A stretch of DNA of 64,000 nt from Kiritimatiellia bacterium. GTDB taxonomy: Bacteria; Verrucomicrobiota; Kiritimatiellia; RFP12; UBA1067. The notes under the pieces were generated by a model. That model was given only the letters and a program-made list of their open reading frames with translations, made no database searches and was not told where the DNA came from. The stretch is taken from assembly GCA_045641465.1 (NCBI GenBank), contig JAZUGW010000166.1, forward strand, positions 691-64,690, written 5' to 3'. Both the position numbers and the translations under genes were made by a program. This document shows positions 54,581 to 64,000 of the stretch, in pieces (within the stretch, counting starts at the first letter, position 1; every line of letters begins with the position of its first letter).

Positions 54581-55522
54581 ATGAAAAAGTTGATGACAGC
54601 ACTTGTCCTATTCGGACTTTCTGTTTCGGTCTATGCGGGAGCACGTGAAGATGGTCTTTTCATCTCCCATGTCCATCGGGGTGGCGGGAAGTTCGAACGT
54701 CCCGACAACACATTGGAAACGTTCCTCTGGTGCTGGGGGAACGGTTCCGCGCTCGAATGCGATTGCCGCTGCACGAAAGACGGTGTCGGTATCATGTTCC
54801 ACGACAACGACTTGCGTCGAACGCCGCGCGGCATTCCCGAGACGTGGAAGACACGCAAGATCAGCGAAATGAACTGGGCCGACATCCGCGATATCGACGT
54901 CGGATCCTATCTCGACGCACAGTATGCCTCCCAGCGCATTCCCACGATCCAAGCGGTGATGGCGGCGATGGCGGGACATCCCTCCTATCTTCTCTTTGTG
55001 GACGAAAAAGGCGCGGGGCCTGCGCGCATTGCCGCTGAAGCACGCAAGGCCGGCGTACTGGACCAAGTCTACTACACAGGCTGCAGCTATCCCAATATCG
55101 TCAAATGGAACGAAGTCGTGCCGGGCGGCAAGTCCTTGCTGTGGATCGGACGGTTTCCGAAATTCAAAGACCGTTTCGACCCGGTCAAACGGGCCAAGAT
55201 GGCGAAAGAGGTCCAGGCGCATTTCGAAAAATACATGGTGGAACTGCGCCAGGCGAACTTCAAGTACGTGAATGCGGTTTCACTGCATACCTACTGGAAT
55301 CCGAAGGACCCTGTCGATCCGTTCATCCTTGGCACGGACTACTTGAAAAAGCTCATCGACGAGTTCCACGCCCATGGCGTCAAGGTCTGCTCGATCCCGT
55401 TTGAAGGCGGCGAAAATGAGGCCTGCTATTATCGCCTTTGGGAACTCGGGTGCGACGGATTCTCAACCGACTATCCTTCCGTGATGTTCAAAGTCATCAA
55501 AAAATTAAAGGTTAAAGATTAA
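54581..55522 (+). CDS. secreted glycerophosphodiester phosphodiesterase (GDPD family)
   Basis: 313 aa. Signal peptide MKKLMTALVLFGLSVSVYAGA. GGAGG Shine-Dalgarno. Catalytic motifs HRGGG...PDNTLETF and LECDCRCTKDGVGIMFHD. Confidence 0.85.
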   Translation: MKKLMTALVLFGLSVSVYAGAREDGLFISHVHRGGGKFERPDNTLETFLWCWGNGSALECDCRCTKDGVGIMFHDNDLRRTPRGIPETWKTRKISEMNWADIRDIDVGSYLDAQYASQRIPTIQAVMAAMAGHPSYLLFVDEKGAGPARIAAEARKAGVLDQVYYTGCSYPNIVKWNEVVPGGKSLLWIGRFPKFKDRFDPVKRAKMAKEVQAHFEKYMVELRQANFKYVNAVSLHTYWNPKDPVDPFILGTDYLKKLIDEFHAHGVKVCSIPFEGGENEACYYRLWELGCDGFSTDYPSVMFKVIKKLKVKD

Positions 55523-56631
55523 AAAGGCCAGAGCCAAAAGGCCGGGTTCTTTTCGAGCCATTCACCCATCGATTGGAGGCGCGAGGGTGGCGTCGTCGAT
55601 TTCTTCTTGGCAGCGGCCAAGCGGATTTCGATCGGTTCAAAACGAGTCGGATACTCGGCCCGCCGTCGAATCTTCTCCGCATAGGCCTCGCTGTAGAAAC
55701 GGCCATCTGCCGTTCGGTCACGACGGGCATTGTAACGCCGCAAGGCTTCCGGCCAACCGTCGAAGAAGCCTTTCGGACGTCGCCAGGCGGCTTGTCCTGA
55801 AGTTCCGAACCCCTTCCGTACAAGAAACATAATCGCCGCACGGACATTGGTCTCAAGTTCCCCTTCATTACGCTTTTCGGGTTTCTTGAGTCCCACATCG
55901 AGTTTGGCCGCGTCCCAGTCCCCCGGCACATTCACCTGGAGCGGATCGCACCACCAAGCCGCCCGCGCCACGGGACCGTTCCCACCGGACTCTTCGATCA
56001 TCATGGATTTGACCAGAGCCGGCGTCAGGTCTGAAATCTTCGCCGTCTGTACGGCGCTACCGCCACACCAAATCTGCTTGTTGGCATTGAAAGCAACAAC
56101 CATCTGAACGATCAGATCGTCGTGCGCCTGATAGCGTGCGTCTTCAAACCCGGCGAACACGGGGATCTCAAGCGGATTGCGAACCTCGGGACGCAAGGCC
56201 AAATCAACGACCTTCTTCTTATTCTTCTTCGGACGCACCCTGAAAATCCGGCGATAATAACGCTCAAGTCTATGAACGACTTTCATCTCGTCGTCCGTGA
56301 CGAAACGACGATCGATCCAGAAGTGTCCCCAGATATCGAAGATGAACGAGTTGCCGCCCGTGTTGATGCGATAGAAATGATTCGCCGCCGAAGGTGGAAC
56401 TTCTGCGATCCCCTTCGCCGCAAGTTTTCTCTTGTGTTCGGCTTCGCGTTTCTGCGCGCGGGCATTGATGTTGATCGCTTCCGAAACGAGCTGCGTGACT
56501 TCAATGATTTCACGCGGCGAAAGTGTCGTCATCTGCGCGGACGAAGACAAGCTCGCGCCACCCAATGCCAGAATGCAGACAAGGGATCGGAAGAAAACTG
56601 ACAGACGTGTACGCACCTTAAACGACGACAT
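55519..56631 (-). CDS. secreted hypothetical protein, possibly lytic-transglycosylase-like (weak SLT-type ES motif)
   Basis: The start was taken at the ATG at 56631 (MSSFKVRTRLSVFFRSLVCILALGGASLSSSAQ signal peptide) rather than the track's 56766, which would overlap the TSCPD gene by ~150 nt. Contains MMIEESGGNGPVARAAWWCDPLQVNV. Domain assignment is weak. Confidence 0.4.
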   Translation of the reverse strand: MSSFKVRTRLSVFFRSLVCILALGGASLSSSAQMTTLSPREIIEVTQLVSEAININARAQKREAEHKRKLAAKGIAEVPPSAANHFYRINTGGNSFIFDIWGHFWIDRRFVTDDEMKVVHRLERYYRRIFRVRPKKNKKKVVDLALRPEVRNPLEIPVFAGFEDARYQAHDDLIVQMVVAFNANKQIWCGGSAVQTAKISDLTPALVKSMMIEESGGNGPVARAAWWCDPLQVNVPGDWDAAKLDVGLKKPEKRNEGELETNVRAAIMFLVRKGFGTSGQAAWRRPKGFFDGWPEALRRYNARRDRTADGRFYSEAYAEKIRRRAEYPTRFEPIEIRLAAAKKKSTTPPSRLQSMGEWLEKNPAFWLWPF

Positions 56632-56878
56632 CCGGCTTGACCGCAATTTCGGCTTCAAGCGCCCGCGCCAGCTGGTCCGGACACGATGTTCCGCCACGGC
56701 AGTTGATGCCCTTGCACAAGGCGATGACATCCTCGACCTTGCGTCCGACCGCCAGACGGGCCACACCTTGCGTATTGCCCGGGCATCCGCCGATAATCTG
56801 ACACGCCGTCAGAATGCCGTCTTTCACTTCATACTGAATTGCCTGTGAACACGTACCACTCGTTCGATAAAGCTTCAT
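56618..56878 (-). CDS. TSCPD-domain small Cys-rich protein
   Basis: 86 aa, MKLYRTSGTCSQAIQYEVKDGILTACQIIGGCPGNTQGVARL...GGTSCPDQLARALEA. It has the eponymous T-S-C-P-D motif and conserved Cys pattern of the TIGR03905-like family. Confidence 0.7.
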   Translation of the reverse strand: MKLYRTSGTCSQAIQYEVKDGILTACQIIGGCPGNTQGVARLAVGRKVEDVIALCKGINCRGGTSCPDQLARALEAEIAVKPDVVV

Positions 56879-56936: not shown

Positions 56937-59900
56937 TTAGGGGTTCTTCTTCGGCGGCTTCGGCGGCAAGGGCGGCAAAAGACGATAGACGAACCCGCGT
57001 GCCAACACGAGATGATCCCACGCGAAGGCCTGATTGTATTCGTTCGCCGGGGTGATCGGCACACGCCATTTCTGCTTCTCGTCTTTCGCAACCGTCCAGA
57101 TTTTCATCTGCGGCTGAATCGTCGGCGGCATCTTCTTGGCAGTCGCCACGACCGTGAAGTTGTTGGACGAAGCCGGAATGACTTTCGGCTTGAACGTAAG
57201 GTAGGCATTATCCTCCAGCGTAATCGGCGCGTTGAATCCATCATGGCGAATGATTTCAAGCGGAATCGGCTGACGCCACCACGGGCGCATCAGAAGACCG
57301 CTCCGCTTGGCATAGATCTCGTAGCGCGGGACAGGCCGGTGGATGCGGAGCGTGTAGAAATAAGTCCCTCCACCCTTCCTCGCTTCGTCCGTCACGCGTG
57401 CGGTATACTTGCCGGGCGCGAGGCGGACTCGTCCAATTGGATCGCACTCCGCCTGAATGACGCTTCCGACATGAACGGTATTCGTCACATCGTCGAAGCG
57501 TGCAATCATCTTGCCGGCCTCATTGAAAACGGTGACGCGTGCATCCAGCGGCAAACCGAGTCGACGCGACAGGAGGTCGAACACATAGACGCCCTCCTTT
57601 TTGATTTCAAACGCATTCGTTACAACGGCGCCGGGTTTCGCCACGCAACCAGAGAACTGCGCCACCACGGCATTCGTCGGTAAGGCATAGTTCGGCAACG
57701 GAGAGAGCGAAAGATAACGCAACTGGGGACGTGCCTTCGCACCTTCTGACACGCGGATCGCATAGACGAAGTCCGCACGTCCCCGATAGAGATTGTCATG
57801 GATCTTCAGCGCATAGTCGCCATCCTTGGGCACGGTAAACGTAAGGACGGAATCGGGATGGAAGAAATAGTCGTCATTAAAAGCGACTTCATGATTGTTG
57901 GTATCGACAATGCTCAACACGGGATTGAAAAAGCCAGGCACCGCATCGCCGATGTAGGGCTGAAACTCGCGGGCGATGGTCTGAAACGTCAGTACACGCC
58001 CCTTCTTCATGTTGGGCAGACGCCATGTATCGGTCGTGCCCGGATAAATCTGGCCGTTCAAAATGCACGGCACATTTTCAACGGCCGGCGGTTCAGGCTG
58101 CTTGCGATGGGGCGGAACGTAGAGCGGCTCTTCAACGACGGGAAGCTTGGTCACGATGATCGGACGCGGCGGAGAAAATCCCGATCCGGCGCCAAGGCGG
58201 AAATCACGTGCACCGAGGGGAGCATTGGTCTCGACCGACAGCGTCACGAGCGCCGCCTGATTGAGCGAGGGCGTCATCTGCAGGGGATTACGCGGCATAA
58301 ACAGCCAGCGTTCCACCTGCTGGATCTGCCGCGCATCGAGTTGTCCCAGCACATTCCACCAGCGGTTGCTGCGCCATTCGTTGTAGTGCTCGTTTTCAAC
58401 CGGCAAGGGAGGTTGGGTGCGATCACCCTGCGCAATCTGGTCGAGCCATTTCACCAAGTACTTGCGCTGATCCCCTGTCGGCACCGGAAAACCCGGCACG
58501 AGCTCGACGTTCAGGACGCGAACGCCCGATCCGCTCACGACGGCCCCCTGGGCACCCCAAAAATACTGTCCGCCGACAAGGACGCGATTCGTCGTACCGG
58601 CCTGTATCGTTGCCGGATAGATGAAACCGACATACGGATCCGCCGCCGAAGCGGAAAGCGCCGTCAGCATCCCAAGACAGACAAGCAGCACGCCCAAAGC
58701 ACGACGGGCCGCATCAAGAGCCACGCGGGCTTTCGCATTCAACACGGTCAGACCGAACCGCTTGAGCGTCTCGTGATAGAGCGCTTCACCCTCGCAGTTG
58801 CCGAAGTCCTTCTTGACCTCCTTCATCGCCGCGACAAGTTCTTCCGTCGGAATCTGATCAATGGACCGCGTCTTCTTCACTTCGCGTACCGGCTTGGCCT
58901 TCAGGGCGGTCACACCAGGCGGCAAGGACGAAGCCGCCGGCTTCGCAGCCGGCGAAGGCTGTTTCGCCGAAGCTTCCTGCGCGATCTGTTCATCACGCGT
59001 TTCCAATGCTTCCAAAAGCGAAAGCAAGGCCCCTTCGGCGCGTTTGCGATCATAAGCCCAGTCCACACTCCACAGACGCGTCACATGCCAGCCGAGCCCC
59101 TTCAGCACCGAGGCGCGCAGCACATCACGATCACGGGTGGTCCGCTGGCTCGCGTAACACGGACCATCGCATTCGATCGCGCACAGATAGCCTTCGCCTT
59201 GACGGCGACGAACGGCCAGATCGATGCGGAAGCTCCCGCAGCCGGCATTTTCGTCCACGGTCCAGCCATGGTTGCGCAACATCGTCGCCACGGCCTGGGG
59301 AAATTCGACGGCAAACGGATCCGTGTTGGCGAGATCGGCTTCAACCGACGACGCGACACCGCCCTTTTCCGCGAATTCAAGGAAACTCTTCAGATGTGCC
59401 GCACCGGTCGCCGACGTGCGGTTGAGGTCGATCTGCGAACCGTGAATGCTTGAGAACACAACGACCTGCTCTTTCGCACGCGTCACGGCGACATTCAACC
59501 GGCGTTCACCGCCATCCCGATTCAACGGACCGAAATTCATCGCGAGTTTGCCGTCCGCATCCGGCGCATAGCCGACGCTGAAGAGGATCACATCGCGTTC
59601 GTCGCCCTGGACGTTTTCGAGATTCTTCACGAAGAACGGTTCGTCCGTATCGTCGCCGAAGAACTTCTCCAACGACGACTCCTTTTCACGCCGTTCTTCG
59701 ATGAGGTCTTCGATCAGCGTCTGCTGCGCCTGGCTGAACGTCACCACGCCCACCGAACGGCGACGATAGCCGGGGGCCGCGAAGTGCGTAAACACGTAGT
59801 CGACGAGCGCTTCCGCCTCCTTGCGGTTCGTCCGCGACGCACGACGTTCGAAGGTACCACCTTCCACGAATTCGAACCGTACGCCGAGACGCGGCGAATC

Positions 59901-62327
59901 GCTCGCAGCAGGGAAGGTATTCAAACGGTCGCCATAGTAGTTATGGTTGCTGAACGAGATCAACGACTCGTGGCGGCTGCGGTAGTGCCAATTGAGGTAG
60001 GCCGAATGGACACCCGCCGCAAGGCATTCATCCAGAATGGATTCCATGTCCGCGACGGATTCATCCTCCTCGTCCTCGACCTCCGCTTCACCCTTCTGGA
60101 AGAAGTTCGTCGGCGGCATCTGCTTCGGATCGCCCACGCAGACGAACTGCTTACCGCGCGCAATGACGCCGATCGCGTCCCACACGGGAATCTGCGAGGC
60201 TTCGTCGAACACCACCAGGTCGAAAGACGCATCGGCCGGCAGATACTGCGCTACCGACAACGGACTCATCAGGAAGCACGGCTTGATGTCCGCCACAAGG
60301 TGCGGGATTTCCGCCAGCAACTGACGAACCGGCTTCTGGCGCGCCTTCTTTTCGCACTCGCGCCGCAGAATGCCGAGTTCGCTCGCCGCCGGACAATCCC
60401 CTCCGCGGCGGCGCGGCAGGCGCGTCGCGAGCTTGGCGAACACCTCGCCCTTGGCAAGTTCCGCCAAGCGCGCATCGAACTCGCGATAGAGTTTCACGCA
60501 GTTGTCGTGGTTGAGGCCGTTGAAGGCATTGAAACGCGGTTCCTCCCGCGTCACGGCATCCAGCATCTTCGCCGCGTAGGCATCGCGGAAGCGTGCGAGG
60601 ATGTCGTCCGGCGCAATCGTCCCCGCCTCGACCGCCCGGGCGAGTCCCGCCAGGCCGGCCTTTTCGGCCAGCTCCTTGGCGCGACGCCAATTCAGCACGC
60701 CGCGAAGTTCGTCGGTCGCCCCCGCAAGTCGTTCGGCGTCTTCGGGTTTCATCTTGAAGGCCTGTCCGAACGGGACGAGCGCACGATGGCGGAAAGCGGT
60801 CAAAACGCGTCCAAAGAAACCCTTACGGCTTCCCTGAACGAGATCTTGCGCCACGGTCGCGACCTCCCGTTCAAAACCGGGGGACCACTCCTGCGCGACC
60901 AGCGGCGCCAACGCGGCAACGGCTTCGGGCGTTGTACCGCGCCACCCGTTCGCGAGCTCCTCGGTGAGCCGTTCGGCCGCTTCATGGTCGGCGCGCGCCT
61001 CGTGCAACGTGTCGATCGAAAGCAGTCCCTCGTCCTTTAAATGGGACTTGCCGGTTTCTTCATCGACGGACGCAATCAGATGCGCAAAGCAGTCGCACGC
61101 GGTGAGTCCGTTCGGATAGATCTTGTGCAGTGCACGCACATAGGCATCAAGTTCCTCGCGCGACGAGGCGAGATTCTGCGACGTCGTCTGCCAGTCGGCA
61201 GGTCCCTGACAGTCCGGCACGTCGAGCGCCTCGGCGAACTGTGCAAGCACCTCGGCCTTGCCGGACTTGTTCGAATGCAGCTCGAGGCAGAAAGGCTTCA
61301 GGCCAATCGACGAGAGACGCCGATGCACCACATCGAGCGCGGCCTTCTTTTCGGAGACGAACAGCACGCGCCGCCCCAGTGCCAGGTTGTGCGCAATCAG
61401 GTTCGTAATCGTCTGGCTCTTACCCGTACCGGGCGGACCGTGCAGCACGAACGTCTTGCCCATCGCGGAATAGAGCACGGCCGTCATCTGGGACGAATCG
61501 GCGCTCAGCGGACAATACACTTTTCCGGGCACGATCTTTTCGCCGATCGCCTCCGGCGGAAAGACCTTGACCCCGTCGTCATACAGACCGCCGCCCTTGA
61601 CAAGATGGTCGACGAGCGGATTCTTCCGCAACTCGTCCATGCGCGTCGTCATGTCCTTCCACATCACGAACTTGCCGAACGAGAACTGTCCGAGTGCGAC
61701 ATCGCGCGTCACGGTCCAGCCCTTCTGTTCAGCCGTCGCCTGAATGAAGGCATCTACGATCGCATTGACATCGACGCCTTTTTCATCAGTCGGCAACGGA
61801 TCGATGTTCGGCACCGTGATACGGAACTCGCTTCTCAGCAGCTCAAGCAGCGTAGCATTCACAACGGTATCGTCGTCAAGCGCCGTCAGGCGAATGTCCT
61901 TCAGCGACTTGCGAACGAGCTTGACCGGCACGAGGATGAGCGGGGCGCGATAGAACTTCGGATCGCTTTCGGAGGGACGCCACGAGAGAAATCCGATCGC
62001 GACGAAGAGCGTGTTCACGCCACCCTCTTCAAGATCCGTCTTCGCCACGCGGAAGAGGTTCTTCAAACGCTTTTGCGTTTCCTCCGGCGTGACATTTGAA
62101 ACGAGGAATCCGTCCTCGGGATCACCCGTCTCGATCGGCACGACCTCTTCAGACGACAAACGGTCCTCAAATGTCGCGATGTCACGGCAGAAAAGCGGTA
62201 GCACCTGCTTGCTGTCGCGGACATTCAGCAGACGATTCCGCAAAGAAAGGTCCAAAAGCTTTTTGGACCATCTGTCGGTTCTTTCACTCATTTCTTTCTT
62301 CTCTTCTCGATTTTTACCAGGTACCAT
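56937..62327 (-). CDS. giant single ORF: DUF4011/Upf1-like SF1 helicase with Vsr-like (DUF559-type) endonuclease and DUF3320-like region, continuing in frame into an RR signal-peptide-like segment plus ~690-aa beta-rich secreted-type domain with two PPC-like modules
   Basis: 1796 aa. DUF4011 signature LLDLSLRNRLLNVRDSKQVLPL. Helicase motifs VLHGPPGTGKSQTITNLIA, DEASQ, VTFSQAQQ, VQGDERDVILFSVGY. Nuclease core RIDLAVRR...GYLCAIECDGPCYASQ...D...LGWHVTRLW. Then ...FGLTVLNAKARVALDAARRALGVLLVCLGMLTALSASA|ADPY... followed by GDYALKIHD...FVYAIRV and GKYTARVTDE...GGGTYFYTLRIHR (PPC-like signatures). Start ambiguity: ATG 62327 (MVPGK) or ATG 62291 (MSERTD). Confidence 0.75.
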   Translation of the reverse strand: MVPGKNREEKKEMSERTDRWSKKLLDLSLRNRLLNVRDSKQVLPLFCRDIATFEDRLSSEEVVPIETGDPEDGFLVSNVTPEETQKRLKNLFRVAKTDLEEGGVNTLFVAIGFLSWRPSESDPKFYRAPLILVPVKLVRKSLKDIRLTALDDDTVVNATLLELLRSEFRITVPNIDPLPTDEKGVDVNAIVDAFIQATAEQKGWTVTRDVALGQFSFGKFVMWKDMTTRMDELRKNPLVDHLVKGGGLYDDGVKVFPPEAIGEKIVPGKVYCPLSADSSQMTAVLYSAMGKTFVLHGPPGTGKSQTITNLIAHNLALGRRVLFVSEKKAALDVVHRRLSSIGLKPFCLELHSNKSGKAEVLAQFAEALDVPDCQGPADWQTTSQNLASSREELDAYVRALHKIYPNGLTACDCFAHLIASVDEETGKSHLKDEGLLSIDTLHEARADHEAAERLTEELANGWRGTTPEAVAALAPLVAQEWSPGFEREVATVAQDLVQGSRKGFFGRVLTAFRHRALVPFGQAFKMKPEDAERLAGATDELRGVLNWRRAKELAEKAGLAGLARAVEAGTIAPDDILARFRDAYAAKMLDAVTREEPRFNAFNGLNHDNCVKLYREFDARLAELAKGEVFAKLATRLPRRRGGDCPAASELGILRRECEKKARQKPVRQLLAEIPHLVADIKPCFLMSPLSVAQYLPADASFDLVVFDEASQIPVWDAIGVIARGKQFVCVGDPKQMPPTNFFQKGEAEVEDEEDESVADMESILDECLAAGVHSAYLNWHYRSRHESLISFSNHNYYGDRLNTFPAASDSPRLGVRFEFVEGGTFERRASRTNRKEAEALVDYVFTHFAAPGYRRRSVGVVTFSQAQQTLIEDLIEERREKESSLEKFFGDDTDEPFFVKNLENVQGDERDVILFSVGYAPDADGKLAMNFGPLNRDGGERRLNVAVTRAKEQVVVFSSIHGSQIDLNRTSATGAAHLKSFLEFAEKGGVASSVEADLANTDPFAVEFPQAVATMLRNHGWTVDENAGCGSFRIDLAVRRRQGEGYLCAIECDGPCYASQRTTRDRDVLRASVLKGLGWHVTRLWSVDWAYDRKRAEGALLSLLEALETRDEQIAQEASAKQPSPAAKPAASSLPPGVTALKAKPVREVKKTRSIDQIPTEELVAAMKEVKKDFGNCEGEALYHETLKRFGLTVLNAKARVALDAARRALGVLLVCLGMLTALSASAADPYVGFIYPATIQAGTTNRVLVGGQYFWGAQGAVVSGSGVRVLNVELVPGFPVPTGDQRKYLVKWLDQIAQGDRTQPPLPVENEHYNEWRSNRWWNVLGQLDARQIQQVERWLFMPRNPLQMTPSLNQAALVTLSVETNAPLGARDFRLGAGSGFSPPRPIIVTKLPVVEEPLYVPPHRKQPEPPAVENVPCILNGQIYPGTTDTWRLPNMKKGRVLTFQTIAREFQPYIGDAVPGFFNPVLSIVDTNNHEVAFNDDYFFHPDSVLTFTVPKDGDYALKIHDNLYRGRADFVYAIRVSEGAKARPQLRYLSLSPLPNYALPTNAVVAQFSGCVAKPGAVVTNAFEIKKEGVYVFDLLSRRLGLPLDARVTVFNEAGKMIARFDDVTNTVHVGSVIQAECDPIGRVRLAPGKYTARVTDEARKGGGTYFYTLRIHRPVPRYEIYAKRSGLLMRPWWRQPIPLEIIRHDGFNAPITLEDNAYLTFKPKVIPASSNNFTVVATAKKMPPTIQPQMKIWTVAKDEKQKWRVPITPANEYNQAFAWDHLVLARGFVYRLLPPLPPKPPKKNP

Positions 62328-62372
62328 TCCCTCGATACACTTGGCCCATCTCGGCTATACCGTGTGATGATA

Positions 62373-62401
62373 ATTATACACGATTTAGCCCCCCATGTGA
62401 A
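62373..62401 (-). promoter_or_regulatory. candidate sigma70 promoter (TTCACA-17-TATAAT) for the giant helicase ORF
   Basis: The reverse strand reads gggTTCACAtggggggctaaatcgtgTATAATtatcatc ~45 nt upstream of the ATG at 62327. Confidence 0.5.
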
Positions 62402-62779
62402 CCCAATTTTCACTTGAAGAGTCGACGCATCTGCAGCCGTATCGTAATTGGCCGCCCTCACTTCTAAGGCTCTTCGGGAATAAGTGTGGGTCAGTCTGGC
62501 GCCGGGTTCATCCCATCATGTACGCAGATGCCTTCGGCATACGCAGTTTTGGCGAAATCCGATCCGGCTACGACGCCCGCGCCGCTGGGCGGCCTCCCAG
62601 ACGACGGGAGATTGTCCGATTGCAAAGACCGATGCGTCAACGGAATTAGACGAAACCGAGACAACGCCGATGACTGTCAAATGGAAAATGGAAAACGGAA
62701 AATGGAAAATGCACCAAGCCTCAACGCCCATTTCACTTTCTCCATTTTCAGTTTTACATTCGAGACGACTTTCGTCACC

Positions 62780-63316
62780 TCATCGGATCGTGAGAACAAG
62801 GGCGTCGTGAACACGCTTCGGGGTTACTGTGAGCGACGACGCCGACGGGCCCGTGATGCGTATACGCGTCCGATCGAAATCGGGAATGCGGACGTTCGGA
62901 TCGAACGAACCGGCACAAAGCGGCATGGAACCGGGTTCCCCCAGCTGCCAAAGCGGTGGCTCTGCCCGCCTCCCTGGCTTGAGAACGAGAGACATCCGCG
63001 AACCGTACGGAGTAGCGACGGACGACGCCTTGACCTCTCCGTTGACGCCGCGAACTACGAACGCATTCCGCGACCATTCGACGGCGATCTTCGACTCATC
63101 ATCGGACAGACATCCGTCACCGTCGGCATCGTGCCCGACGGCGACCTCGATCCGGCAGTCCGACGACTGCGGCAGATCCAGATCGAACTTCATCCCCACC
63201 TTCGGCTCCGAGACGATAGGACACGGCACCGTCCGCTCAACCATCGTCGAAAACGAGGAAGGCGCGTTCGTCACCGCAAGTGATGCCACAGCAAACAAGA
63301 CTGCACCGACCATCAT
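62780..63316 (-). CDS. small secreted hypothetical protein
   Basis: 178 aa. Signal peptide MMVGAVLFAVASLAVTNA. No recognisable domain. Start overlaps the stop of the upstream Cys-rich gene (ATGA-type coupling). Confidence 0.5.
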   Translation of the reverse strand: MMVGAVLFAVASLAVTNAPSSFSTMVERTVPCPIVSEPKVGMKFDLDLPQSSDCRIEVAVGHDADGDGCLSDDESKIAVEWSRNAFVVRGVNGEVKASSVATPYGSRMSLVLKPGRRAEPPLWQLGEPGSMPLCAGSFDPNVRIPDFDRTRIRITGPSASSLTVTPKRVHDALVLTIR

Positions 63317-64000
63317 TCATTCCCTCCTTCGCCGATAGTCAACTGCCACAGGGGTTGACCTGAAGACAGAATTTGGTTGGTGACGGCCGTAAAATGTTGG
63401 CGATTATACTGACTGCAGTCTTGGCAATTCAACATGAACACTGCAAAGTCAAGACGGTTGGAACTTGTCGAATAACCTTCGAGAGCCGAAACGAAAAGTC
63501 TATCAAGATGCTTCCCTCCCGACGAATTATTTTTCCTATGACCGTAAAACCTATTGGCAACGCTTTCAACATGAGAGACAGCACACGTCCCATTGGTCAC
63601 GCCCTCAAGCAATCTGTTTGTATAAAAGCCACACAGGAACCCCCTTTCTTTAGCAGCAAATGCAGTTGTATTCGTGAAAACATTTTCAACGAAACACGCA
63701 CTTTCAAGATTCAACGGAAGCATGGGAACAATATTCCGAATCACATGCATGCGCATGCGGTGCGAACAGGTCGGATTGAGGAACAGTTCCTTGATCCACG
63801 GCAGCGCGGCCGTATAGTTCATGAACGCGCACTGCGACACCGCGAGTTCGGTGACGCTTCGGTAGTCGTTCGTCTCGCTGCTGTAGTCGTGCCGCCCCAT
63901 ACCTTCAAGGAATGCGTCGAACGCGGCCTTCTTTTCTTTGGGCGTCCAGTCCCCGTCGACCGCCAGACGGAAGAACTTCCGAGGAGTTCGAGTGTCGAAG
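63313..64000 (-). CDS. Cys-rich hypothetical protein from a low-GC segment, possibly BspA-type LRR-like (3' part; N-terminus beyond window end)
   Basis: The reading frame stays open past the track's ATG at 63900 to the window edge (...FDTRTPRKFFRLAVDGDWTPKEKKAAFDAFLEGMGRHDYSS...). Cys recur every ~16-24 aa (QCAF, PTCSH, SACFV, FLCGF, GTCAV, NCQDC). Local GC is clearly lower than in the flanks. Confidence 0.5.
   Translation of the reverse strand, partial: FDTRTPRKFFRLAVDGDWTPKEKKAAFDAFLEGMGRHDYSSETNDYRSVTELAVSQCAFMNYTAALPWIKELFLNPTCSHRMRMHVIRNIVPMLPLNLESACFVENVFTNTTAFAAKERGFLCGFYTNRLLEGVTNGTCAVSHVESVANRFYGHRKNNSSGGKHLDRLFVSALEGYSTSSNRLDFAVFMLNCQDCSQYNRQHFTAVTNQILSSGQPLWQLTIGEGGNE

What the first reader, a model, noticed from the sequence alone, without database searches (positions are those of the whole stretch)
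56937..62327. Cytoplasmic-type helicase-nuclease (DUF4011/Upf1-like/Vsr-like/DUF3320) runs without a stop into a signal peptide and a 690-aa secreted-type domain
Large DUF4011-SF1 helicase-DUF3320 proteins normally end shortly after the DUF3320 'FGLTRL...' region. Here the same frame continues through a textbook RR-containing signal peptide (MALDAARRALGVLLVCLGMLTALSASA^ADPY if started at the internal GTG) into a beta-rich region with two pre-peptidase-C-terminal-like modules (GDYALKIHD...FVYAIRV; GKYTARVTDE...GGGTYFYTLRIHR). There are three explanations: (i) a genuine membrane-anchored helicase-nuclease with an extracytoplasmic sensor domain, which would be an undescribed architecture reminiscent of defence or signalling proteins; (ii) two genes joined by loss of a stop codon, with the downstream secreted protein made by internal (GTG/TTG) initiation; (iii) an assembly or sequencing error. 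Any of the three is worth resolving.
Basis: partly seen in the sequence, partly recalled or inferred. Interest (0 to 1): 0.8.

Follow-up and report, generated by a model that had tools for sequence, protein, structure and literature searches.

The report
Defence helicase fused to secreted protein
In a small group of Kiritimatiellia bacteria, a cytoplasmic anti-phage-type helicase-nuclease gene has merged in frame with the neighbouring gene for a secreted protein, exactly at that protein's export signal; evolution has kept the merger, so one reading frame probably yields a cytoplasmic enzyme and an exported protein joined (or later cut apart) at the membrane.

Summary
ORF 56937-62327(-) (1796 aa; the true start is probably ATG 62291, giving 1784 aa) joins an Hhe/ProA-like DUF4011 - SF1 helicase - MTES_1575 nuclease to a 568-aa beta-sandwich/PPC protein, through a signal-peptide-like segment (aa 1208-1228, ...RR-ALGVLLVCLGMLTALSASA|ADPY).

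It is not an error. The same open junction occurs in at least 6 near-identical assemblies and in three lineages only 72-74% identical (dS 0.7-1.8). Both halves are under purifying selection (dN/dS 0.13-0.26).

Stand-alone helicases end at ...LDAAxRR. Stand-alone secreted homologues (>400, Kiritimatiellia) begin with an ~18-aa signal peptide cleaved before ADPYVGY. The helicase's basic tail has therefore replaced the Met + n-region.

The nearest stand-alone secreted gene (P0001) carries an 18-codon remnant of the helicase start, so it is an in-frame deletion derivative of the fusion.

A parallel DUF1501 fusion of the same domain has the same junction. Two of its three loci examined have no usable internal start codon.

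Best reading (about 0.55): one polypeptide, whose internal Sec signal exports the C-terminal half and is probably cut by signal peptidase. Separate internal initiation is not excluded. A sensor role is unsupported. This is a new variant of a known kind, and rare (1 of 185,579 GTDB species).

The parts
56937..62327 (-). Whole fused ORF, 1796 aa as the longest ORF. The probable true start is ATG at 62291 (MSERTDRW...), giving 1784 aa.
   Evidence: ORF; orthologues L002/L003/L004 and six gene calls in the P0121 cluster all start at MSER.
62373..62401 (-). Promoter-like site (TTCACA-17-TATAAT, 11 of 12) upstream of the helicase start. It is the closer of two such sites upstream of the gene, and there is none inside the gene.
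   Evidence: This is a consensus match only.
61836..62261 (-). DUF4011 N-terminal domain (aa 23-164).
   Evidence: PF13195, E=7.5e-37. dN/dS is 0.08-0.12 among fused orthologues.
59451..61499 (-). Upf1-like SF1 helicase core (AAA_11 to AAA_12, aa 277-959). Motifs present: GPPGTGKS (aa 297), DEASQ (708), GDPKQMPP (732), VQGDERD (906), NVAVTRAK (945).
   Evidence: Exact-string matching finds GPPGTGKS, DEASQ and VQGDERD in all four fused relatives; GDPKQMPP and NVAVTRAK are found in P0121, P0123 and P0124 but not in P0122, whose sequence at those positions was not inspected. The nearest solved structures are SMUBP-2, Sen1 and Upf1.
59022..59303 (-). MTES_1575 / Vsr-like PD-(D/E)xK nuclease domain (aa 1009-1102; RIDLA at aa 1034, IECDG at aa 1051).
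   Evidence: PF18741, E=1.3e-26. (motifs conserved).
58695..58865 (-). Helicase C-terminal tail domain (aa 1155-1211, IDQIPTEEL...FGLTVLNAKARVALDAARRAL). This is the natural end of the helicase family.
   Evidence: stand-alone relatives P0125-P0130, P0160 and others stop at ...LDAA(xRR); the tail aligns to P0169 residues 1855-1933 of 1939.
58644..58706 (-). Internal signal-peptide-like segment, RR + ALGVLLVCLGMLTALSASA (aa 1208-1228). The predicted signal peptidase I site is ASA|ADPY, between 58644 and 58643.
   Evidence: It is collinear with the N-terminal signal peptides of 95 stand-alone homologues. Position -1 is always A, and -3 is A/S/G/L.
56937..58643 (-). Mature secreted-type protein (aa 1229-1796 plus stop): a multi-domain beta-sandwich protein with a helical insert.
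   Evidence: 432 homologues; all 120 listed are stand-alone or other fusions, and the named ones are Kiritimatiellae/Kiritimatiellia. (AF2 pLDDT 90.1, pTM 0.88). (domain-level fold matches only).
57744..58067 (-). First PPC-like beta-sandwich module (about aa 1421-1528; contains GDYALKIHD...FVYAIRV). Boundaries are approximate.
   Evidence: Secondary-structure layout of the model. Fold matches to ColG/ColH collagen-binding and PPC domains, target TM-score 0.63-0.77. PF04151 in homologues.
57339..57668 (-). Second PPC-like module (about aa 1554-1663; contains GKYTARVTDE...YFYTLRIHR). Boundaries are approximate.
   Evidence: NCBIfam FDP_fam hit at fragment residues 351-446, E=2.7e-4, below cutoff..

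Best explanation
This is a lineage-specific, evolutionarily maintained gene fusion.

Origin. An Hhe/ProA-like single-gene defence helicase-nuclease (short, ~1200-aa form) came to lie immediately upstream of a conserved Kiritimatiellia gene for a secreted beta-sandwich/PPC protein. A deletion then removed the helicase stop codon, the intergenic DNA and the secreted gene's ATG plus n-region. The helicase's natural basic C-terminus (...LDAARR) now directly precedes the hydrophobic core and the AxA cleavage site of the signal peptide.

Shown. The junction anatomy is as described. The fusion is conserved in five lineages. Both halves are under purifying selection. One lineage (P0001) later deleted helicase codons ~19-1209 in frame, leaving the secreted protein driven by the helicase start codon.

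Inferred.
- The ORF is translated from the helicase start as one ~195-kDa polypeptide.
- The helicase-nuclease stays in the cytoplasm.
- The internal signal sequence (positive side facing the cytoplasm) engages SecYEG/SecA as a hairpin and exports the C-terminal 568 aa.
- Signal peptidase I probably cuts at ASA|ADPY. This would release the periplasmic protein and leave the helicase-nuclease carrying a C-terminal hydrophobic tail at the inner membrane.
- The net effect would be obligatory co-expression of the two proteins and membrane localisation of a defence nuclease. It need not involve any signalling between the halves.
For: - Reality and age: the same open junction occurs in L005 (99% identical, independent assembly), in six cluster members of 1781-1793 aa, and in L002/L003/L004 (72-74% identical overall). 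dS is 0.66-1.8, with dN/dS 0.13-0.18 for the helicase and 0.16-0.26 for the secreted half. The flanking genes differ between lineages.
- Junction anatomy: stand-alone helicases at 53-71% identity stop at ...KARxxLDAA(xRR). A long-form relative ends 6 aa after the equivalent of L1211. 95 stand-alone secreted homologues have an N-terminal signal peptide (median 18 aa) cleaved before ADPYVGY, with -3 mostly A/V/L and -1 mostly G/A. The fused segments keep signal-peptide length (14-19 aa) and -1 = A. Within the window's own cluster, -3 varies only among A, S and G.
- Deletion scar: P0001 sits in the same SecA - 15x-aa - BPD_transp_1 - [gene] - GDPD - 48x-aa context as the fused genes of L003/L004. 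It is nested in the fused clade in the tree of the secreted half. Its first 54 nt match the helicase start at 38 of 54 positions, against 13.9 +/- 3.2 (maximum 30) over 38,658 offsets. The protein reads MSECIFGRLQQLLHLSFRT-IAAV..., compared with MSERVVRWSQKLLDLSLRN... and ...AARR-AIAV... in the fusions. Helicase loss by a clean in-frame deletion that keeps the helicase start is what is expected if the secreted half depends on that start.
- No support for internal initiation: no positionally conserved start codon; GTG-1195 is GTA in L005; no SD-like 4-mer before any of six candidates, against 16 of 30 window genes; chance alone gives at least one start-type codon with P=0.83-0.88; no internal promoter-like site.
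- Parallel case: at least 10 clusters fuse a signal-less DUF1501 to the same domain through the same kind of junction. L093 has no ATG/GTG/TTG in the 36 codons before the cleavage site, and L094 has only a TTG at -6. There the domain must be made as a fusion.
Against: - There is no direct evidence on translation, export or cleavage. All mechanistic steps after the gene structure are inferred.
- Every fused lineage does carry at least one in-frame ATG/GTG/TTG 13-27 codons before the cleavage site. About half of the window's genes also lack an SD-like motif. Internal initiation therefore cannot be excluded.
- Export of a 568-aa domain after a folded 1200-aa cytoplasmic domain would have to be late or post-translational.
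- In three lineages the uncharged stretch is only 14-16 aa. That is too short for a stable transmembrane anchor if it is not cleaved.
- The deletion scar is a single event (one cluster, three sequences).
- The DUF1501 analogy is indirect, and its own topology (a normally exported DUF1501 without a signal) is unexplained.
Confidence: 0.55

Rival explanations
1. Two functionally independent proteins share one reading frame. After the stop codon was lost, the secreted protein is still made mainly by internal initiation at a lineage-specific GTG/TTG/ATG just upstream of the hydrophobic core (GTG-1202 in the window, giving MALDAARRALGVLL...ASA|ADPY). The helicase read-through product is a tolerated by-product.
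For: Each lineage has at least one in-frame start-type codon 13-27 codons before the cleavage site that would give a plausible signal peptide: window GTG at -27, L002 TTG at -21, L004 GTG at -23, L003 ATG at -15. About half of the genes in the window lack an SD-like motif, so non-SD initiation is common here. The segment has remained signal-peptide-like rather than evolving into a long transmembrane helix in three of four lineages.
Against: - The candidate starts are not conserved in position. Their presence is expected by chance (P=0.83-0.88).
- GTG-1195, the only codon shared by four lineages, is GTA in the 99%-identical L005.
- No SD-like motif and no internal promoter-like site were found.
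- L003's only candidates give a signal peptide with no charged n-region.
- The P0001 derivative uses the helicase start, not an internal one.
- DUF1501 fusions of the same domain lack any usable internal start in 2 of 3 loci.
Confidence: 0.27
2. An integrated envelope-coupled defence protein. The segment is an uncleaved transmembrane anchor, and the periplasmic PPC/beta-sandwich domain senses phage adsorption or envelope damage and regulates the cytoplasmic helicase-nuclease across the membrane.
For: - The fusion has been retained for dS>1, with strong purifying selection on both halves.
- In the window/P0121 lineage the segment has grown to 19 uncharged residues. Its summed Hessa-scale insertion energy is about 0 kcal/mol, against 5.6 +/- 1.7 for stand-alone signal peptides.
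- The helicase half matches defence models: PADLOC PDC-S37 and Hhe, NCBIfam ProA.
- Members of the secreted-protein family often sit beside two-component signalling genes.
Against: - The secreted domain is an ordinary, widespread stand-alone protein of the class (432 homologues found, all 120 listed lacking a helicase).
- Stand-alone helicases of the same subfamily are never next to it.
- The AxA site and the conserved mature N-terminus are retained.
- One lineage simply deleted the helicase and kept the secreted protein.
- The fusion is confined to one small clade.
- No feature suggests signal transmission through a 14-16-aa segment.
Confidence: 0.12
3. Artefact: a mis-assembly, a chimeric contig, or a sequencing error that removed a stop codon or frameshift at about 58.6-58.8 kb.
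For: None found. This was only the prior, based on how unusual the architecture is.
Against: The identical junction is found in independent assemblies from different samples (L005, and P0244-P0248 on contigs up to 64.9 kb). It is also found in three orthologues that differ at about 26-28% of residues, with in-frame indels at the junction. Base composition is uniform across the junction.
Confidence: 0.01

Closest known systems
Hhe (DUF4011 - helicase - Vsr-like endonuclease single-gene anti-phage system; NCBIfam NF042953, PADLOC PDLC02194)
   Same: The order DUF4011 N-domain, Upf1-like SF1 helicase, PD-(D/E)xK nuclease is the same. Hhe is a single-gene system. [quoted passage not shown]
   Different: The score is 773.6 bits against an equivalog cutoff of 2000. 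Only profile positions ~1114-1697 of 1797 are well matched. The helicase part is ~1200 aa rather than ~1800 aa. No Hhe is known (to me, or in the papers searched) with a C-terminal signal sequence and a periplasmic domain.
ProA anti-phage protein (NCBIfam NF058533) / PADLOC candidate PDC-S37
   Same: These are the best-scoring curated models: ProA 1380.8 bits and PDC-S37 1106.7 bits. They share the helicase C-half, the nuclease and the C-terminal tail.
   Different: The score is below the ProA cutoff of 1500. The best stretch covers profile positions 1131-1727 of 1903. Pfam DUF3320 is absent. I found no paper describing ProA or PDC-S37 in the library, so its mechanism could not be compared.
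Stand-alone ~600-aa secreted PPC/beta-sandwich proteins of Kiritimatiellia (e.g. P0001-P0120; 'hypothetical protein')
   Same: They are 44-66% identical over the whole C-terminal half. The mature N-terminus ADPYVGYIYP and the domain order are the same.
   Different: They carry an ordinary N-terminal Sec signal peptide (median 18 aa, MKK... n-region). The window protein has 1200 aa of helicase-nuclease in place of the Met + n-region.
DUF1501::PPC-domain fusion proteins of Kiritimatiellia
   Same: The same secreted domain is fused at the same point: the natural C-terminus of the upstream protein ends in basic residues and is followed directly by the hydrophobic core and xxA|ADPYVGY. The N-terminal partner has no export signal of its own.
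   Different: The partner is a DUF1501 sulfatase-like domain encoded next to a PSCyt2/PSD1 gene, not a defence helicase. The family is more widespread (at least 10 clusters). Two of the three loci examined have no possible internal start codon.
Bitopic (N-in/C-out) bacterial membrane proteins with a cytoplasmic enzymatic domain and an extracytoplasmic domain, such as PknB-type kinases and anti-sigma factors (from general knowledge)
   Same: The predicted orientation matches: positive residues on the cytoplasmic side of a single hydrophobic segment, and a large folded extracytoplasmic C-terminal domain.
   Different: Those proteins have genuine ~20-aa or longer transmembrane helices without a signal-peptidase site, and their two halves are functionally coupled. 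Here the segment is signal-peptide-sized with an AxA site, and the halves have independent evolutionary histories.

Membership tests
Hhe (NCBIfam NF042953 equivalog) | Whole-protein score at or above the curated cutoff (2000 bits). | tested here: not met
   773.6 bits.
Hhe (architecture) | DUF4011 N-domain + SF1 helicase (AAA_11/AAA_12) + Vsr-like/PD-(D/E)xK nuclease in one polypeptide. | tested here: met
   PF13195 aa 23-164, PF13086/PF13087 aa 277-959, PF18741 aa 1009-1102. All seven probe motifs are present in the window protein.
Hhe / ProA | Confers phage resistance when expressed. | not testable with these tools
   Needs plaque assays.
ProA (NCBIfam NF058533 equivalog) | Whole-protein score at or above the curated cutoff (1500 bits), with full-length profile coverage (1903 positions). 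| tested here: not met
   1380.8 bits. The best stretch is aa 528-1131 to profile positions 1131-1727. The helicase part is only ~1200 aa.
DUF3320-containing long-form helicases (PF11784) | Pfam DUF3320 domain present. | tested here: not met
   No PF11784 hit at E<=0.1 on the whole protein or at E<=10 on aa 1129-1796. Only the extreme C-terminal tail is shared with P0169.
PADLOC candidate system PDC-S37 | Match to model PDLC05009. | tested here: inconclusive
   E=0, 1106.7 bits, aa 529-1124 to profile positions 769-1357 of 1550. There is no curated cutoff and coverage is partial.
Sec-type cleavable signal peptide | Positively charged n-region, hydrophobic h-region of about 7-15 aa or more, and small residues at -3/-1. 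| tested here: met
   RR + 19 uncharged residues + A-S-A|A. It is collinear with the signal peptides of 95 homologues. Within the cluster, -3 is A/S/G and -1 is A. No dedicated predictor (SignalP) was available.
Sec-type cleavable signal peptide | Located at the N-terminus of the translated product. | tested here: inconclusive
   It lies at aa 1208-1228 of the ORF. It is N-terminal only if an unconserved internal GTG/TTG is used.
Tat signal peptide | S/T-R-R-x-F-L-K consensus ahead of the h-region. | tested here: not met
   The sequence is D-A-A-R-R-A-L-G. The RR is part of the helicase tail, conserved in stand-alone helicases. Stand-alone secreted homologues have MKK/MRR Sec-type n-regions.
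PPC (pre-peptidase C-terminal, PF04151) domain proteins | Pfam PF04151 match. | tested here: not met
   No hit in the window protein, even at E<=10. PF04151 is precomputed for many homologues and is sub-threshold in P0044.
PPC (pre-peptidase C-terminal, PF04151) domain proteins | PPC / collagen-binding-domain beta-sandwich fold. | tested here: met
   The AF2 model (pLDDT 90.1) matches ColH CBD 3jqw, ColG CBD 1nqj and the B. anthracis PPC domain 5sv5 with target TM-score 0.63-0.77 and rmsd 2.8-3.6 A.
Bitopic signal-anchor membrane protein | Uncleaved hydrophobic helix long enough to span the membrane (about 19 aa or more). | tested here: inconclusive
   The window/P0121 lineage has 19 aa with a summed Hessa energy of about 0. 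L002/L003/L004 have only 14-16 aa, with 3.9-4.6 kcal/mol. All retain an AxA-type site.

The most novel reading that the evidence does not exclude
The fusion is not just tolerated but is a new kind of envelope-coupled immune protein. An uncleaved or conditionally cleaved hydrophobic segment tethers an Hhe/ProA-like helicase-nuclease to the inner membrane. The periplasmic PPC/beta-sandwich domain reports phage adsorption or envelope perturbation, for example by regulated cleavage or release. That would localise or unleash the nuclease at the site of DNA entry.
Probability: 0.1. Interest if true: 0.9.

Novelty: new variant of a known kind. Interest (0 to 1): 0.6.

Why it matters
If the ORF is translated as one chain, this is a natural bacterial 'polyprotein'. 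An internal Sec signal would partition a cytoplasmic DNA enzyme and a periplasmic protein from a single reading frame, and would place a defence-type nuclease at the inner membrane, where phage DNA enters.

The same junction logic recurs in the DUF1501 fusions. There internal initiation is impossible in two of the three loci examined. Internal signal sequences may therefore be an under-appreciated route of gene fusion and co-expression in Kiritimatiellia.

The P0001 deletion scar is a rare, datable record of gain and then loss of a defence gene inside a housekeeping gene. It also gives a natural control construct.

For annotation, such proteins are currently labelled only 'DUF4011 domain-containing protein'. 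Pipelines based on length or domains will miss the fusion or misread it as an error.

Tried and rejected
1. The homology search with the C-terminal half alone returned no fused protein, which at first suggested the fusion was unique. Searches with the helicase part and with the full length showed that P0121-P0124 had been missed. The cause is probably a length-ratio limit of the tool: listed hits were never longer than ~1.7x the query. That negative result was discarded.
2. A Tat signal (because of the 'RR') was rejected. The RR belongs to the helicase's conserved tail and there is no Tat consensus.
3. A compositional break at the junction, as a sign of recent acquisition, was not found. GC/GC3 is 0.607/0.737 for the helicase, 0.579/0.687 for the secreted half and 0.602 for the window. 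The other three lineages are likewise uniform.
4. A conserved helicase + secreted-gene neighbourhood, which would imply an operon partnership before the fusion, was rejected. The stand-alone helicases P0125 and P0126 have unrelated downstream genes.
5. The attempt to establish the pre-insertion locus from the outgroup P0006 was uninformative, because its context differs (PBP1A - gene - response regulator).
6. The GTDB genome scan found only the already known L002 contig. The JGI metagenome scan found no junction-spanning locus.
7. Literature on ProA and PDC-S37: nothing was found. DUF4011/DUF3320 papers mention only annotations.
8. The fold search against AFDB50 was unavailable. The PDB search gave only domain-level matches and no functional lead.
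9. Synonymous-site conservation upstream of the junction (ACG and CTC identical in four lineages) was judged to be within what codon bias can give, and was not pursued.
10. A second structure prediction across the junction was not run. With only five fused sequences it could not have distinguished between the hypotheses.
Full report
**1. The observation**

The window contains one uninterrupted minus-strand ORF, 56937..62327, of 1796 aa.

- Pfam places DUF4011 at aa 23-164, the SF1 helicase halves AAA_11/AAA_12 between aa 277 and 959, and the MTES_1575 PD-(D/E)xK nuclease at aa 1009-1102. It finds nothing beyond aa 1102.
- All seven probe motifs are present: GPPGTGKS, DEASQ, GDPKQMPP, VQGDERD, NVAVTRAK, RIDLA and IECDG.
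- Codon by codon, the frame continues through ...FGLTVLNAKARVALDAARRALGVLLVCLGMLTALSASA|ADPYVGFIYP... (aa 1191-1238) with no stop.
- The part after the predicted cleavage site is 568 aa, not about 690 aa.
- Pfam DUF3320 and PPC are not detected in this protein.
- The likely true start is the second ATG (62291, MSERTDRW...). All orthologues and six independent gene calls begin there.
- A strong sigma-70-like site (11 of 12) lies at 62401-62373. There is none inside the gene.

**2. The two halves**

*The N-terminal 1211 aa.*
- The best matches are the curated defence models. NCBIfam ProA scores 1380.8 bits (cutoff 1500) and Hhe 773.6 bits (cutoff 2000). PADLOC PDC-S37 scores 1106.7 bits, and PADLOC Hhe also matches.
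- This half is therefore a short-form relative of these single-gene helicase-nuclease systems. By NCBI's thresholds it is not a member.
- The nearest solved structures are only Upf1-like helicase cores: SMUBP-2, Sen1 and Upf1.

*The C-terminal half.*
- It has 432 detectable homologues. All 120 listed are proteins without a helicase, and the named ones come from Kiritimatiellae/Kiritimatiellia. Most are 580-650 aa.
- Each starts with an ordinary short signal peptide (median 18 aa). The predicted cleavage is directly before the highly conserved ADPYVGYIYP.
- An AlphaFold model built on 51 homologues is confident (pLDDT 90.1, pTM 0.88).
- The model is a string of beta-sandwich modules with a helical insert. 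PDB matches are at domain level only: ColG/ColH collagen-binding and PPC domains (target TM-score 0.63-0.77), Ig/FN3-like modules and the DeCLIC N-terminal domain.
- It looks like a binding or structural periplasmic or surface protein, not an enzyme.

**3. The junction is a seamless splice of two natural ends**

- Stand-alone helicases of the same subfamily (53-71% identical, 1174-1242 aa) terminate at ...KARxxLDAA...LDAAFRRK and the like. That is 0-8 residues from the point where the hydrophobic stretch begins in the window protein.
- The tail also aligns with the last 85 residues of a 1939-aa long-form relative, which ends 6 residues past the equivalent of L1211.
- The helicase's own basic C-terminus has therefore taken the place of the Met + Lys/Arg n-region of the signal peptide. 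The h-region, the AxA site and the mature protein follow unchanged.

**4. The fusion is real, old and maintained**

- Searches with the helicase part and with the full-length protein found exactly four clusters, among 5.8 billion, that span both halves: P0121 (99%), P0122, P0123 and P0124 (72-74% overall).
- P0121's cluster has six members from different assemblies, on contigs up to 65 kb. All are 1781-1793 aa. One is in NCBI nr as MCQ2393495.1, 'DUF4011 domain-containing protein'.
- The DNA of L005, L002, L003 and L004 confirms open junctions, with an in-frame 3-codon length difference.
- Between lineages dS is 0.66-1.8. dN/dS is 0.13-0.18 for the helicase, 0.08-0.12 for DUF4011, 0.10-0.37 for the tail plus junction, and 0.16-0.26 for the secreted half.
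- Base composition is uniform across the junction and equal to that of the host.
- The flanking genes fall into two arrangements: window/L005/L002 against L003/L004. The fused gene has therefore survived local rearrangements as a unit.
- The fusion is rare. It occurs in one of 185,579 GTDB species representatives (a Kiritimatiellia MAG) and in no junction-spanning contig from the JGI scan.
- Assembly or sequencing error is excluded.

**5. A deletion scar shows the direction and age of events**

- The closest stand-alone secreted homologue, P0001 (65% identical), lies in L001 between BPD_transp_1 and GDPD, downstream of SecA. The fused genes of L003 and L004 occupy exactly that slot.
- In a neighbour-joining tree of the secreted half, P0001 falls inside the clade formed by the five fused proteins.
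- Its N-terminus is atypically long: MSECIFGRLQQLLHLSFRT-IAAVALIGLGGRLRA|ADPY. Its first 54 nt match the first 54 nt of the L003 helicase at 38 positions. The background over all 38,658 offsets in the locus is 13.9 +/- 3.2, with a maximum of 30.
- A variant in the same cluster even retains ...LSLRT.
- The sequence is what an in-frame deletion would give, from ...LSLR|N (helicase codon ~18) to ...AARR|AIAV (codon ~1209).
- The fusion therefore predates this lineage. That lineage then lost the helicase but kept the secreted protein, now translated from the helicase's start codon.

**6. One polypeptide or two?**

I looked for signs of internal initiation.
- Candidate in-frame ATG/GTG/TTG codons exist 13-27 codons before the cleavage site in every lineage, but at different positions.
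- The only codon shared by four lineages (GTG-1195) is GTA in the 99%-identical L005.
- At a start-type codon frequency of 7-9%, at least one such codon in that stretch is expected with P=0.83-0.88.
- None of the six candidates in the window is preceded by an SD-like 4-mer, whereas 16 of 30 long ORFs in the window are. This is weak evidence, because half of the genes lack one.

Two observations favour a single translation product.
- The helicase was lost in P0001 by a clean in-frame deletion that retained the helicase start. That is the only viable route if the secreted half depends on that start. It is one of many routes if it does not.
- An independent and more widespread fusion joins the same domain to a signal-less DUF1501 (at least 10 clusters) through the same type of junction...GRLKELYR + h-region + xNA|ADPYVGY. 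In L093 there is no ATG/GTG/TTG in the 36 codons before the cleavage site, and in L094 there is only a TTG at -6. In that architecture the domain must be made as a fusion, with the internal signal-like segment working in place.

**7. Anchor or cleavable signal?**

- The uncharged stretch is 14-16 aa in L002/L003/L004 and 19 aa in the window lineage. The median for stand-alone signal peptides is 13 aa.
- Position -1 is A in all the fused proteins. Position -3 is A/S/G within the window's cluster and L in the others. All of these are acceptable to signal peptidase I, and they mirror the stand-alone proteins, where -3 is A/V/L and -1 is G/A.
- Only the window lineage reaches a summed Hessa-scale energy near 0 kcal/mol. 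Stand-alone signal peptides give 5.6 +/- 1.7.
- I therefore favour export followed by cleavage. The helicase-nuclease would be left with a short hydrophobic C-terminal tail at the membrane. This step is inferred, not shown.

**8. What it does**

- The helicase half is most plausibly a functional Hhe/ProA-like defence enzyme. Its motifs are present and its dN/dS is low.
- Hhe is reported as a single helicase-nuclease gene. Its activation appears to follow the function of phage DNA-metabolism genes rather than direct recognition of each gene (10.1101/2024.10.10.617714).
- The secreted half is a conserved protein of the class, of unknown but probably binding-type function.
- Several findings argue against an evolved sensor-effector coupling. 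The two halves have separate histories. Stand-alone helicases are never encoded next to the secreted gene. One lineage discarded the helicase.
- That reading is not excluded. It remains the most interesting possibility, at about 0.1.

**9. Novelty and verdict**

- Both components are of known kinds. The junction, a defence-type cytoplasmic helicase-nuclease read through an internal Sec signal into an exported protein, is not described in the papers I could search. In the databases it exists only as an unremarked 'DUF4011 domain-containing protein'.
- I rate it a new variant of a known kind: real, conserved but narrowly distributed. It comes with an unusually clear evolutionary record (gain, fusion, in-frame loss) and a parallel fusion family that points to a more general phenomenon.
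- Interest: 0.6.

Noticed in passing
L093:579-3563, L094:3001-5922, L095:3001-5952 (proteins P0063, P0044, P0088, plus P0080, P0082, P0087, P0089, P0091, P0092, P0095): A separate, more widespread fusion family, DUF1501 fused to the same secreted PPC/beta-sandwich domain (972-1024 aa). The DUF1501 domain starts at residue 3 with no Tat or Sec signal, and the gene begins 10-12 nt after a PSCyt2/PSD1 gene. The junction keeps a signal-peptide-like segment. Two of three loci have no usable internal start codon. The topology of a normally exported DUF1501 without a signal is unexplained.
   Followed up: partly
L001:7545-9383 (P0001; also P0250, P0251): This stand-alone secreted gene begins with an 18-codon remnant of the helicase gene (MSECIFGRLQQLLHLSFRT). 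It is a natural in-frame deletion of about 1190 helicase codons. The remnant now evolves fast as a signal-peptide n-region (9 of 19 residues retained), whereas the same 19 residues are identical in L002, L003 and L004.
   Followed up: yes
L095:5949-7938; L096:9877-10560; L097:4635-5318; L098:4416-5099: Members of the secreted-protein family are repeatedly followed by two-component signalling genes: HisKA/HATPase_c plus a response regulator in L095, and an OmpR-type response regulator 8 nt downstream in L096-L098. This may be a hint to the unknown function of the family.
   Followed up: no
window 62292-62327: The longest ORF starts 12 codons (MVPGKNREEKKE) upstream of the start used by all orthologues (MSER..., ATG 62291). 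The purine-rich stretch GAGAAGAGAAGAAAGAA just before 62291 may act as its ribosome-binding site.
   Followed up: partly
window 62000-62750 and 63250-63750: These are low-GC stretches (0.46-0.51, against 0.60 for the window) immediately upstream of the fused gene. The two minus-strand ORFs here (62780-63316, 178 aa; 63313-63900, 195 aa) have no Pfam match. The same genes precede the fused gene in L005. This may be foreign DNA.
   Followed up: no
window 54581-56878: Local rearrangement relative to L003 and L001. The GDPD gene that directly follows the (fused) gene on the same strand in L003 and L001 lies here on the opposite strand (54581-55522, +). It is separated from the fused gene by a TSCPD-domain ORF (56618-56878, -) and a 370-415-aa ORF (55519-56766, -) that is 70% identical to the gene downstream of the fused gene in L002.
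   Followed up: partly
L003:15402-16847, L004:8828-10285, L001:10367-11833: A conserved 481-488-aa neighbour of the fused or scarred gene has a weak, sub-threshold protein-kinase-like match (Pkinase, E=4.5e-5 in L003). Its function is unknown.
   Followed up: no
The search for homologous proteins behaviour: In all three searches the listed hits were never longer than about 1.7x the query. The 1784-1811-aa fused proteins were invisible to the 595-aa query even at 99% identity. Negative results from short queries about fusion partners should not be trusted.
   Followed up: partly
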